64,000 bases of DNA. It comes from a phage. The position numbers were made by a program, and so were the translations under genes. The DNA lies in sequence record PQ327946.1. The stretch is one strand, 5' to 3'. Numbering within the stretch: the stretch's first letter is position 1; every line of letters starts with the position of its first letter. Below, piece by piece: positions 11,043 to 45,616 of this stretch. The notes under the pieces are model-generated. The model did not search any database, was not told the DNA's origin, and worked only from the letters and a program-made list of their open reading frames with translations.

Positions 11043-13368
<2,326 letters not shown>

Positions 13369-45085: not shown

Positions 45086-45114
45086 ATAGTAACACATCCT
45101 ACAGGAGAGTAAAC
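45086..45114 (-). promoter_or_regulatory. early promoter (GTTTAC-N17-TACTAT)
   Basis: Minus strand GTTTACTCTCCTGTAGGATGTGTTACTAT upstream of the 122-aa ORF. Confidence 0.55.
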
Positions 45115-45147
45115 ATCTTTTTTAAACTTTTTCTGCCCTAAACGCAC

Positions 45148-45169
45148 AAAAGGGAGACCGAAGTCTCCC
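45148..45169 (-). terminator. intrinsic terminator after the 59-aa basic ORF
   Basis: Minus strand GGGAGACTTCGGTCTCCC then TTTTGTG; same 23-nt core as the gene 32 terminator. Confidence 0.7.
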
Positions 45170-45174
45170 TAAAA

Positions 45175-45354
45175 TTATGCAACAACCTTTCCAAAACGAG
45201 AAGCATCATCTCGAAGAACTGCACGTGCTCTGCGCATGATCTTCTCAACTGTTTGATTAATACGAGAGTTCGACCCACGCTTGTATCCAGCGCGTTTAGA
45301 GGTACCATCAACTTTCTTTTCAACTGCTTTCTTTGCTTTAGCTTGTTTTGCCAT
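45175..45354 (-). CDS. small basic protein (59 aa), not in ORF track
   Basis: Hand-translated: MAKQAKAKKAVEKKVDGTSKRAGYKRGSNSRINQTVEKIMRRARAVLRDDASRFGKVVA; followed by a GC hairpin plus U-run; replaces the track's 45138-45323 ORF, which reads through the hairpin. Confidence 0.55.
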   Translation of the reverse strand: MAKQAKAKKAVEKKVDGTSKRAGYKRGSNSRINQTVEKIMRRARAVLRDDASRFGKVVA

Positions 45355-45616
45355 TATAAATTCTCTTTAAATGAAAATGCAGGACTTATTGACATTGCCT
45401 GCTCAAGCCCTCAAGGGGAACATAGGTTTTGGATATTTAACGACAGGATAACCATAAACCCGTCATCATACCTACCACGACTTACACAGATAACACTTTT
45501 CTGACGCATGATAGTAACATTCAAGAGGTACACCGTAAAATTGTCGGGGCGGTACTTCTAAAACATACCGATTCGCAAATCGATAATCAGACAATTCGAC
45601 GGCTCCTCGATTTAAC

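What the first reader, a model, noticed from the sequence alone, without database searches (positions are those of the whole stretch)
45175..45354. Unannotated 59-aa lysine/arginine-rich protein gene with its own terminator; the track's overlapping ORF is an artefact
Hand translation of the minus strand gives MAKQAKAKKAVEKKVDGTSKRAGYKRGSNSRINQTVEKIMRRARAVLRDDASRFGKVVA, ending 6 nt before a perfect GGGAGACUUCGGUCUCCC hairpin plus U-run. The track instead reports a 61-codon ORF in another frame (45138-45323) that reads through the hairpin (its ...RETSVSL... is the hairpin translated). The basic composition suggests a nucleic-acid-binding or internal-protein-like function.
Basis: seen in the sequence. 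Interest (0 to 1): 0.4.

Follow-up and report, generated by a model that had tools for sequence, protein, structure and literature searches.

The report
Known T4 gene 30.9 with terminator
The 59-codon reading frame is a real, conserved gene, but it is the long-known phage T4 gene 30.9 of unknown function, followed by a conserved terminator hairpin, so the finding is correct but ordinary; the structured RNA just upstream of it is the more unusual feature.

Summary
ORF 45175-45354 (-) encodes the quoted 59-aa protein. A GGGAGAC-UUCG-GUCUCCC hairpin plus U-run follows 5 nt after its stop codon. The 61-codon ORF 45138-45323 is a frame artefact: relatives keep the 59-aa frame in 24/24 distinct sequences (pN/pS 0.39), while the other frame has stops in 17/24 (pN/pS 1.34).

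The gene is not new. The window is a T4-like Mosigvirus (about 99% to HX01), and the ORF is the orthologue of T4 gene 30.9 (first ORF 31.-2, 1990; PHROG 1427). It is annotated in HX01 and PhAPEC2, the latter with its terminator.

Published T4 data class the transcript as early and the gene as dispensable in the laboratory. The protein is 6.6 kDa, pI 11.4, with an invariant SKRAxYKRxSNxR motif and an Arg-rich amphipathic helix. It has no relatives outside T4-like phages. My best guess is a small accessory RNA-binding protein, not an internal head protein.

In passing: the leader carries an apparently undescribed, covariation-supported pseudoknot RNA (45420-45470). Sister lineages carry a ToxI antitoxin look-alike directly after it.

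The parts
45175..45354 (-). Protein-coding gene, orthologue of T4 gene 30.9. The product is 59 aa, 6.56 kDa, pI 11.35, net charge +12.5.
   Evidence: ORF list. 96-98% identical to T4 and HX01 gp30.9. PHROG 1427, E = 2.4e-31. Frame intact in 24/24 distinct relatives. Third-codon-position diversity 0.333 against 0.177 and 0.142 at positions 1 and 2. pN/pS 0.39. Protein properties.
45361..45368 (-). Weak Shine-Dalgarno region, AAAGAGAA, with its GAG 8-10 nt before the ATG. It can pair with UUUUC (about 45373-45377) in a small hairpin.
   Evidence: Read from the sequence. Relatives have GGAAGA preceded by (U)CUCC at the same place. The pairing is inferred and was not tested statistically.
45148..45170 (-). 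Intrinsic-terminator-like hairpin, (A)GGGAGAC-UUCG-GUCUCCC(U), followed by UUUU. It starts 5 nt after the stop codon.
   Evidence: Fold at -19.4 kcal/mol, z = -5.5, 0/200 shuffles as stable. A stem-loop plus T-run follows the stop codon in every related locus, with different stems: GGACUCC/GGAGUCC, GGGAACC/GGUUCCC, GGGGCUCC/GGAGCCCC. PhAPEC2 annotates it as a terminator predicted with ARNold.
45138..45323 (-). The 61-codon TTG ORF reported by the track. It is a frame artefact, not a gene.
   Evidence: Stops in this frame in 17/24 distinct relatives; TTG start kept in 7/24. pN/pS 1.34. No PHROG or Pfam match. Its C-terminus is the translated terminator.
45086..45114 (-). T4-early-type promoter for the next gene (30.8 homologue): GTTTAC, 17-nt spacer, TG-n-TACTAT. 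Together with the terminator it forms a stem-loop-plus-early-promoter cassette.
   Evidence: Read from the sequence. The consensus scan did not list it; I attribute this to the hexamers falling short of its TTGACA/TATAAT match threshold. Not tested experimentally.
45511..45540 (-). Putative T4-early-type promoter of the 30.9 unit: TTTTAC, 18-nt spacer, TG-n-TACTAT. It carries the same TGTTACTAT as the 30.8 promoter. The predicted RNA start is near 45504.
   Evidence: Read from the sequence. T4 lacks this -10 segment through a deletion, so the promoter is inferred only for the Mosigvirus type. The T4 30.9 transcript is classed as early.
45420..45470 (-). Conserved pseudoknot RNA element in the rIII-30.9 spacer (the 30.9 leader). 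Stem 1 pairs 45466-45459 (AUGACGGG) with 45447-45440 (CCUGUCGU). Stem 2 pairs 45453-45450 (GGUU) with 45428-45425 (AACC). An A-rich linker, UAAAUAUCCAA, joins them.
   Evidence: Covariation on 17 distinct sequences: 87% of cells paired against 38-49% in slid controls; score 0.383 against at most 0.10; 7 of 15 pairs changed on both sides; 0/500 shuffles reach it. RNAalifold finds stem 1 independently. The covariance model gives a single hit in the 64-kb window, 69 bits. No Rfam family matches. In the window itself stem 2 is only 4 bp and is not better than shuffles.
45379..45417 (-). Two small leader hairpins: CCC-UUGA-GGG (45417-45408) and GCAGG...CCUGC (45402-45379).
   Evidence: RNAalifold consensus on 9 sequences. 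One pair of the second hairpin changes on both sides in 3 sequences (CAGG/CCUG to CUGG/CCAG).

Best explanation
The feature is the orthologue of bacteriophage T4 gene 30.9 in a Mosigvirus-type T4-like genome. I put this identity at about 0.97.

It forms a compact transcription unit on the minus strand:
- a T4-early-type promoter (about 45540-45511, inferred);
- a roughly 150-nt structured leader that contains a conserved pseudoknot;
- a weak, possibly hairpin-masked ribosome-binding site;
- the 59-codon ORF (45354-45175);
- a UUCG-tetraloop intrinsic terminator (45170-45148);
- immediately afterwards, the early promoter of the next gene.

The product is a 6.6-kDa, very basic (pI 11.4) protein. 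It has a Lys/Ala-rich flexible N-terminal tail, an invariant S-K-R-A-x-Y-K-R-x-S-N-x-R-[IV] motif and an Arg-rich amphipathic helix (residues 30-54).

The most likely mechanism, inferred and not shown, at about 0.35-0.4: it is made early in infection and acts as a small accessory RNA-binding protein. The Arg-rich helix and basic tail would dock onto structured RNA, possibly its own leader, other phage RNAs or ribosomal RNA. It would modulate RNA fate or translation, and it would matter only in some hosts or conditions. It is not a structural or internal head protein.
For: Identity and reality of the gene:
- Searches give the same sequence, size and position between rIII and 30.8.
- The frame is conserved, with pN/pS 0.39 against 1.25-1.34 in the shifted frames.
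- Distant homologues keep the position after gp31/rIII and before DNA ligase.

Terminator.

Timing and dispensability (published T4 data):
- Transcript class 'early', protein not detected (PMC9697503, Table S2).
- dCas13d knock-down of 30.9 scores 0.04, p = 0.26, 'Not Fit' (PMC11879866 supplement).
- Non-detection by mass spectrometry is expected, because only one tryptic peptide is 7 aa or longer.

RNA-binding inference:
- Net charge +12.5, hydrophobic moment 0.59 for helix 30-54.
- The helix is predicted confidently and the N-terminus is low-confidence.
- The invariant basic motif is shown and in distant members.
- The gene sits 60-340 nt downstream of a conserved structured RNA in 25 of 29 independent pattern hits.
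- A small basic RNA-binding accessory protein has a precedent in T4-like phages: TifA (PMC10853763).
Against: - No experiment or homology links gp30.9 to RNA. There is no Pfam, NCBIfam, PDB-sequence or Foldseek match and no similarity to TifA.
- Basic composition fits DNA binding, or binding to an acidic protein, equally well.
- The pseudoknot persists where 30.9 has been replaced (L045) and inside a tRNA cluster with no 30.9 homologue found within 900 nt downstream (L038). The covariance model did not find it next to distant 30.9 homologues. The RNA and the protein are therefore not obligately linked.
- The upstream promoter is read from sequence only, and T4 lacks its -10 box.
- The protein has never been detected directly in the data I could read.
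Confidence: 0.4

Rival explanations
1. gp30.9 is a counter-defence (anti-abortive-infection) factor. It would be a small early protein that neutralises a host nuclease or toxin, possibly together with the decoy-like RNAs encoded just upstream.
For: - The gene is dispensable in a laboratory host yet conserved across about 985 phage records, which is typical of host-range or anti-defence genes.
- Sister lineages carry a near-copy of the ToxI antitoxin unit in the same spacer.
- TifA shows that T4-like phages use small basic RNA-binding proteins against ToxN.
Against: - No similarity to TifA.
- The window itself has no ToxI-like unit.
- The association is by position only.
- No defence-system phenotype is known for 30.9.
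Confidence: 0.2
2. gp30.9 is a DNA-binding, histone-H1-like protein that coats or compacts host or phage DNA early in infection.
For: Lys/Ala-rich N-terminal tail (AKQAKAKKAVEKK) and pI 11.35. Early expression.
Against: - No helix-turn-helix, HU or H-NS similarity.
- The tail is the least conserved part, whereas the invariant motif and helix are not H1-like.
- Knock-down has no fitness effect.
Confidence: 0.15
3. The main functional product of the locus is RNA (the leader pseudoknot and its hairpins). The short ORF would serve mainly as a translated spacer or a regulatory reading frame.
For: The pseudoknot is conserved with covariation. It survives replacement of 30.9 in L045 and occurs in a tRNA cluster in L038.
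Against: The amino-acid sequence is under purifying selection (pN/pS 0.39; 16 invariant residues). It is conserved in distant phages where the covariance model finds no pseudoknot. This is not expected for a mere spacer.
Confidence: 0.1
4. gp30.9 is an internal head protein or other virion-packaged basic protein.
For: Small, basic and phage-specific.
Against: - The T4 transcript is classed as early.
- There is no conserved (L/I)xE cleavage or targeting motif at the N-terminus. The window has AVE, and relatives have VKE or none. The motif definition is from my knowledge of the T4 IPI-III proteins.
- The gene lies among early genes between rIII and gene 30.
Confidence: 0.03
5. The 61-codon ORF 45138-45323 is the real gene and the 59-aa frame is fortuitous.
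For: It is 2 codons longer, and the frame is open in T4 and Mosigvirus types.
Against: Stops in 17/24 distinct relatives. The start codon is lost in 17/24. pN/pS is 1.34. It reads through a conserved terminator. It has no family match.
Confidence: 0.01

Closest known systems
Bacteriophage T4 gp30.9 (NP_049823; ORF 31.-2 of GenBank M37882; UniProt P17310; PHROG 1427)
   Same: - 96% identical over 56 of 59 residues.
- Same length class (58 vs 59 aa).
- Same position between rIII and 30.8, on the same strand.
- Same stop-codon-proximal UUCG hairpin terminator.
   Different: - One extra residue and a different C-terminal tripeptide (VVA vs QKA).
- The terminator stem has a different sequence (GGGAGAC vs GGACUCC).
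- The window has a TAA 5 codons upstream of the ATG. This rules out the longer 72-aa and 97-aa versions once deposited for T4.
Rho-independent terminators with a C(UUCG)G tetraloop, common in T4 intercistronic regions (from my knowledge: Tuerk et al. 1988), and the promoter-early stem-loop cassettes of T4-type phages (Arbiol et al. 2010)
   Same: A GC-rich 7-8 bp stem, a UUCG loop and a U-run, followed 34 nt later by a T4-early-type promoter.
   Different: The U-run is only 4 nt before a G interrupts it. Termination efficiency and promoter activity were not measured. The cassette comparison rests on memory of the paper, not on a test here.
TifA (T4 gp61.4), a small basic RNA-binding inhibitor of the ToxN toxin
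   Same: A small, basic, early, accessory protein of T4-like phages. It is a precedent for the proposed kind of function.
   Different: No detectable sequence or profile similarity (hhalign probability 0.05%). Different genome location. No evidence that gp30.9 touches ToxN.
ToxI / pseudo-ToxI antitoxin RNA of type III ToxIN systems (Blower et al. 2012, PMC3475682)
   Same: Sister lineages carry one unit about 90% identical to the 36-nt ToxI repeat in the same rIII-30.9 spacer, on the gene strand: L009-L011, L021, L020 and L045, mostly Klebsiella T4-like phages.
   Different: The window has no such unit (p = 0.63). The look-alike in T4-type sequences is not significant (p = 0.065 in L022, where that segment aligns; only an 8-nt match in the T4 spacer, p = 0.23). 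The window's pseudoknot has a different sequence and no bacterial counterpart.

Membership tests
T4 gp30.9 family (PHROG 1427) | Significant sequence similarity over the whole protein | tested here: met
   PHROG 1427 E = 2.4e-31, residues 1-57. 96-98% identity to T4-type and HX01-type proteins.
T4 gp30.9 family (PHROG 1427) | Conserved position downstream of gene 31 / rIII and upstream of 30.8 ... gene 30, on the same strand | tested here: met
   The window order is cd, 31.1-like, 31, rIII, 30.9, 30.8, 30.7. Distant members keep the position.
T4 gp30.9 family (PHROG 1427) | Translated protein, under purifying selection | tested here: met
   pN/pS 0.39. Third-position diversity is twice that of positions 1 and 2. 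The frame is intact in 24/24 distinct sequences. Direct detection of the peptide is not testable here, and T4 proteomics did not detect it.
Intrinsic (Rho-independent) terminator | Stable GC-rich stem-loop immediately followed by a U-run, at the 3' end of a gene | tested here: met
   -19.4 kcal/mol, z = -5.5. UUUU follows the stem. The structure is conserved with different stem sequences in all relatives.
Intrinsic (Rho-independent) terminator | Transcripts actually end there | not testable with these tools
   This needs 3'-end mapping (Term-seq or Northern blot). The short U4 tract leaves the efficiency open.
T4 internal head proteins (IPI, IPII, IPIII) | N-terminal capsid-targeting sequence ending in a (L/I)xE prohead-protease site (definition from my knowledge) | tested here: not met
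   The N-terminus is MAKQAKAKKAVEKK. There is no conserved L/I-x-E, and the region is the most variable part of the family.
T4 internal head proteins (IPI, IPII, IPIII) | Synthesis timed for head assembly and presence in virions | tested here: inconclusive
   The T4 30.9 transcript is classed as early, but the same table also classes the ipII and ipIII transcripts as early, so transcript class does not discriminate (PMC9697503 Table S2). The 30.9 protein was not detected there. Virion content was not tested.
TifA-like ToxN inhibitors | Sequence or profile similarity to TifA (T4 gp61.4) | tested here: not met
   hhalign probability 0.05%, E = 0.8.
ToxI / pseudo-ToxI RNA | Sequence similar to the 36-nt ToxI unit AGGTGATTTGCTACCTTTAAGTGCAGCTAGAAATTC | tested here: not met
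   For the window: no nhmmer hit, and local alignment no better than shuffles (p = 0.63). The feature is met only in related loci L009-L011, L021, L020 and L045.
Any Rfam RNA family (for the leader pseudoknot) | Covariance-model match | tested here: not met
   No relevant match up to E = 10 on the spacer, up to E = 1 on the surrounding 2 kb of the window, or up to E = 0.1 in eleven related loci.

The most novel reading that the evidence does not exclude
The rIII-30.9 unit may be an RNA-centred accessory, possibly anti-defence, module of T4-like phages.
- It contains an apparently undescribed, phage-specific pseudoknot RNA of about 50 nt (window 45420-45470). This RNA behaves as a free-standing module: it is also found between tRNA genes, and it is kept where 30.9 has been lost.
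- In Klebsiella, Enterobacter and Serratia lineages the pseudoknot is followed directly by a single ToxI-antitoxin look-alike.
- gp30.9 could be the small basic protein partner or regulator of these RNAs.

If so, a 'hypothetical' T4 gene and its 'intergenic' leader would form an RNA-protein counter-defence or RNA-control system.
Probability: 0.15. Interest if true: 0.65.

Novelty: already known. Interest (0 to 1): 0.2.

Why it matters
As reported, the finding matters little. It correctly rescues a real small gene that a 60-aa ORF cutoff hides, and it exposes a false overlapping ORF. But the gene has been in the T4 annotation for decades.

It is a useful reminder of three things:
- short phage genes fall under length thresholds;
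- terminators translated in the wrong frame generate plausible-looking ORFs;
- this family carries propagated misannotations ('glycogen branching enzyme', over-extended N-termini).

What could matter is the surroundings. gp30.9 is among the more widely conserved T4-like genes of unknown function. Its leader holds a covariation-supported pseudoknot RNA with no Rfam family. Sister phages place a ToxI-antitoxin mimic at the same spot. That gives a concrete, testable entry point to the function of this locus.

Tried and rejected
**Protein searches that gave nothing usable**
- Pfam: only sub-threshold noise.
- NCBIfam: noise.
- PDB sequence profile: only SlmA residues 122-146 at E = 0.12. I take this as chance similarity of amphipathic helices, because the RINQ motif is not kept in distant family members.
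- Foldseek against PDB: 0 hits. The model has only one confident helix.
- hhalign against TifA: no similarity.
- The exhaustive HMM search added only about 10 distant phage homologues and one spurious low-complexity 617-aa protein.

**RNA searches**
- Rfam on the window and on relatives: nothing relevant.
- blastn of the pseudoknot against plasmids and E. coli genomes: no match.
- Strict IUPAC pattern in 185,579 bacterial and archaeal genomes: 0 hits. I therefore drop 'mimic of a bacterial antitoxin' for the pseudoknot itself.
- ToxI-like unit in the window: none. The look-alike I thought I saw in T4-type sequences is not significant (p = 0.065 in L022; only an 8-nt match in the T4 spacer, p = 0.23).
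- Whole-leader fold: z = -0.54. Only local elements are structured, not the leader as a whole.
- A mini-ORF (ATGATG...) over the pseudoknot: rejected, because indels shift its frame and its stop codon among relatives.

**Other**
- The generic sigma-70 promoter and terminator scans did not flag the features I describe. The promoters are therefore read by eye against the T4 early consensus recalled from memory.
- Literature: the Miller 2003 T4 review is not held. The two papers that studied 30.9 expression or the neighbouring gene cluster could not be read: Driukas and Nivinskas 2003 (Biologija) and Truncaite et al. 2006 (Virology 344:378). They are known only from citations.

Full report
**1. 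What is in the sequence**

- 45175..45354 (-), ATG, 59 aa, with exactly the quoted sequence;
- 45138..45323 (-), TTG, 61 aa, ending ...RETSVSLLCV.

Reading the minus strand, the stop codon TAA is at 45177-45175. UUUUA follows, then the stem GGGAGAC (45169-45163), the loop UUCG, the stem GUCUCCC (45158-45152), and UUUU before GUGCGUUU. The gap between stop and stem is 5 nt rather than 6.

The hairpin folds at -19.4 kcal/mol against -6.5 +/- 2.35 for 200 dinucleotide shuffles (z = -5.5). The generic terminator scan missed it, probably because the T-run is short. The 59-aa ORF lies one residue below the 60-aa default of the ORF lister.

**2. Which frame is real**

I collected the homologous region from HX01, T4 and 25 IMG/VR contigs. 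This gave 29 loci and 24 distinct gene sequences.
- The 59-aa frame is intact in all of them.
- Nucleotide diversity by codon position is 0.177 / 0.142 / 0.333.
- Nei-Gojobori pN/pS is 0.39 in this frame, against 1.34 and 1.25 in the two shifted frames.
- In the frame of the 61-codon ORF, 17 of 24 distinct sequences have at least one stop inside the span. The TTG start survives only in the T4 and Mosigvirus types.
- The 61-aa product matches no PHROG or Pfam family.

The track ORF is therefore an artefact. Its tail is the terminator translated.

**3. What the gene is**

The window is a T4-like genome, 99% identical here to Escherichia phages HX01, JS09 and F2 (genus Mosigvirus). The neighbours are dCMP deaminase, a 31.1-like gene, gene 31 (co-chaperonin), rIII, then this ORF, then the 30.8 and 30.7 homologues.

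The ORF is the orthologue of T4 gene 30.9 (NC_000866 130364-130540, 58 aa, 'conserved hypothetical protein'). It was first deposited as ORF 31.-2 in M37882. HX01 annotates it as D299_gp257. PhAPEC2 annotates both the gene, 'similar to gp30.9', and the terminator.

tblastn finds it in 985 phage records infecting Escherichia, Klebsiella, Shigella, Enterobacter, Yersinia, Salmonella, Serratia, Citrobacter and Erwinia. It is PHROG 1427, function unknown.

The longer versions once deposited for T4 (72 aa; 97 aa in UniProt P17310) are not conserved. The window has a TAA five codons upstream of the ATG. 'Unannotated' is therefore true only of the track.

**4. The terminator**

Every related locus has a stem-loop plus T-run directly after the stop codon. 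The stems differ:
- GGGAGAC/GUCUCCC in the window and L013;
- GGACUCC/GGAGUCC in T4;
- GGGACUCC/GGAGUCCC in the Klebsiella types;
- GGGAACC/GGUUCCC in other lineages;
- GGGGCUCC-CGAA-GGAGCCCC in L027.

The structure is conserved while the sequence is not.

Thirty-four nt downstream lies GTTTAC, a 17-nt spacer, then TG-n-TACTAT (45114-45086). By my recollection of the T4 early-promoter consensus, this is the early promoter of the 30.8 homologue. A twin, TTTTAC-N18-TGTTACTAT (45540-45511), lies upstream of 30.9. Both are read from the sequence only. The consensus scan did not list them, and T4 lacks the upstream -10 box through a deletion.

**5. What is known experimentally, from papers**

- The T4 time-course study classes the 30.9 transcript as early and did not detect the protein (PMC9697503, Table S2).
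- Non-detection is expected, because trypsin leaves a single peptide of 7 aa or more.
- In the dCas13d knock-down screen of T4, 30.9 scores 0.04 (p = 0.26, 'Not Fit'). Gene 31 next door scores 4.1 (PMC11879866 supplement). So 30.9 is dispensable in a laboratory host.

**6. The protein**

It is 6.56 kDa, pI 11.35, net charge +12.5.

The family alignment shows three parts:
- a variable Lys/Ala-rich N-terminal tail;
- an invariant core, S19-K-R-A-x-Y-K-R-x-S-N-x-R-[IV];
- a helix with an Arg-rich face (EKIMRRARAVLRDD).

AlphaFold gives a confident helix for residues 30-54 (pLDDT 82-89) and low confidence elsewhere (mean 67).

Pfam, NCBIfam, PDB sequences and Foldseek give nothing. The only near-hit is SlmA 122-146 at E = 0.12, which I take as chance.

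An exhaustive profile search of 1.84 billion representative proteins finds 18 proteins, all small phage proteins except one spurious repeat protein. Where context could be read, distant members sit in the same place: after 31.1 / gp31 / rIII in L031, and between gp31 and DNA ligase in OP380603.

**7. Most likely function**

Shown: a real, conserved, early-transcribed, non-essential gene for a very basic helical mini-protein restricted to T4-like phages.

Inferred: it binds nucleic acid, most likely structured RNA, through an arginine-rich helix plus a basic tail, and it acts as an accessory modulator. I put this at about 0.35-0.4.

Rival readings are a counter-defence protein (0.2), a DNA-coating protein (0.15) and a locus whose main product is RNA (0.1).

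The internal-head-protein idea (0.03) has little support: there is no conserved targeting or cleavage motif, and the gene lies in a cluster of early genes. The early transcript class adds little here, because the same table also classes ipII and ipIII transcripts as early.

**8. What I noticed upstream**

The 260-nt rIII-30.9 spacer is not featureless.

*The pseudoknot element.* A roughly 50-nt element (window 45420-45470, minus strand) is conserved in nearly all related loci. On 17 distinct sequences an H-type pseudoknot is supported:
- 87% of cells are paired, against 38-49% when partners are slid;
- the covariation score is 0.383, against at most 0.10;
- 7 of 15 pairs change on both sides;
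- 0/500 shuffles reach the observed value.

A U-G pair kept in 15/17 sequences places the RNA on the gene strand. RNAalifold finds stem 1 independently. In the window itself stem 2 is only GGUU/AACC and is not better than shuffles. Stem 2 therefore rests on the family, not on this sequence.

No Rfam family matches.

*Distribution.* A covariance model gives one hit in the 64-kb window (69 bits) and one in each T4-like locus, but none next to the distant 30.9 homologues. A strict pattern has 0 hits in 185,579 bacterial and archaeal genomes and 29 in IMG/VR. Of those 29, 25 lie 60-340 nt upstream of a 30.9 homologue. Two more of the 29 lie too close to the end of the held DNA to tell. The remaining two are informative:
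- In L045 the element is kept but 30.9 is replaced by another gene.
- In L038 the element (57 bits) sits between tRNA-Pro and tRNA-Asp in a phage tRNA cluster.

So it behaves as a free-standing RNA module.

*A ToxI look-alike in sister lineages.* In Klebsiella-type loci the pseudoknot is followed directly by CGGTGATTTGCTACCAAAGTGCAGCTAGAAAT. I checked this against the 36-nt ToxI repeat, which occurs in 5.6 copies upstream of a ToxN/AbiQ toxin gene on E. coli plasmid pNMEC-O75B. The match is near-identical.

Similar units occur in L020 and L045 (local alignment scores 46-56 against a shuffle maximum of about 25). The 116-nt pseudoknot-plus-ToxI-like segment is in 199 phage records, mostly Klebsiella T4-like phages, and none of the 25 rows I could see annotates it as RNA.

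The window has no ToxI-like unit (p = 0.63), and the look-alike in T4-type sequences is not significant (p = 0.065 in L022). The TifA and T4-family ToxIN papers I could read do not mention such units.

This is a lead, not part of the finding. It motivates the 'novel case'.

**9. Verdict**

The feature is already known as T4 gene 30.9, of unknown function. Interest for the finding itself is low. The structured leader RNA, and the ToxI mimic in sister lineages, are the parts worth following.

Noticed in passing
window 45420-45470 (-): A conserved pseudoknot RNA of about 50 nt lies in the rIII-30.9 spacer. Stem 1 is AUGACGGG/CCUGUCGU. The loop's GGUU pairs with a downstream AACC after an A-rich linker. 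Covariation across T4-like phages supports it. It has no Rfam family, a single copy in the window, 0 pattern hits in 185,579 bacterial and archaeal genomes, and 29 in IMG/VR.
   Followed up: partly
L009 1219-1251; also L010, L011, L021, L020 1176-1211, L045 (about 11880-11920, minus strand): Directly 3' of the pseudoknot, Klebsiella, Enterobacter and Serratia T4-like phages carry one unit about 90% identical to the 36-nt ToxI antitoxin repeat of ToxIN plasmids. I verified the repeat on pNMEC-O75B (L035 1128-1327), where it lies upstream of a ToxN/AbiQ gene. The 116-nt segment occurs in 199 phage records, and none of the rows I saw annotates it as RNA. It is absent from the window.
   Followed up: partly
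L038 6798-6849 (-): The same pseudoknot element (57 bits) lies between tRNA-Pro and tRNA-Asp inside a phage tRNA gene cluster, on the tRNA strand. No 30.9 homologue was found within 900 nt downstream. This suggests a free-standing, processed small RNA.
   Followed up: partly
L045 11201-11972 (-): rIII and the pseudoknot are kept, but 30.9 is reduced to an N-terminal remnant (MKLSKAKAKTAVKE...) fused in frame to an unrelated 214-aa ORF. This looks like a natural replacement of 30.9.
   Followed up: no
window 45379-45417 (-) and 45361-45377 (-): The leader has further small hairpins: CCC-UUGA-GGG, and GCAGG...CCUGC, which shows a compensatory change in relatives. A possible hairpin also masks the ribosome-binding site: UUUUC/GAGAA here, and (U)CUCC/GGAAG in relatives.
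   Followed up: partly
window 45086-45114 (-) and 45511-45540 (-): Two T4-early-type promoters share TGTTACTAT, one on each side of the 30.9 unit. The downstream one sits 34 nt after the terminator, which resembles a stem-loop-plus-early-promoter cassette. They were read by eye. The consensus scan did not list them, and T4 lacks the upstream -10 box.
   Followed up: no
public records of 30.9 homologues (for example OR352946, ON210139, MT884007): Several phage records label this 58-59-aa protein '1,4-alpha-glucan (glycogen) branching enzyme, GH-13-type'. That label cannot apply to a protein of this size, so it is a propagated misannotation. Other records extend the N-terminus to 68-102 aa.
   Followed up: no
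L001 (HX01 RefSeq NC_018855) 1574-1952: The RefSeq record carries several tiny overlapping 'hypothetical protein' CDSs (20-26 codons, both strands) around and inside the 30.9 gene. These are very likely over-prediction.
   Followed up: no
window 45500-45610 (-): The 5' part of the spacer folds into a multi-branch structure, with GAGG...CCUC enclosing GAAUUGUC/GACAAUU and CGAUU/AAUCG. By eye, changes between the window and T4 look compensatory (AAUUGUC/GACAAUU to AACUGUC/GACAGUU; CGAUU/AAUCG to UGAUU/AAUCA). A GGAG sits just after the rIII stop codon and could be a RegB site.
   Followed up: no
gp30.9 residues 30-54: A weak profile match links these residues to helix 122-146 of the nucleoid-occlusion factor SlmA (RINQLFERIEAQLRQVLRE; E = 0.12). 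I take it as chance, because the motif is not kept in distant family members.
   Followed up: partly
PQ850628.1 (Escherichia phage StefiGeyer_Bas88) 29410-29445: A 76.6-kb phage record whose size does not match the 155-177-kb T4-like genomes also has a 36-nt stretch 92% identical to the ToxI-like part of the query.
   Followed up: no
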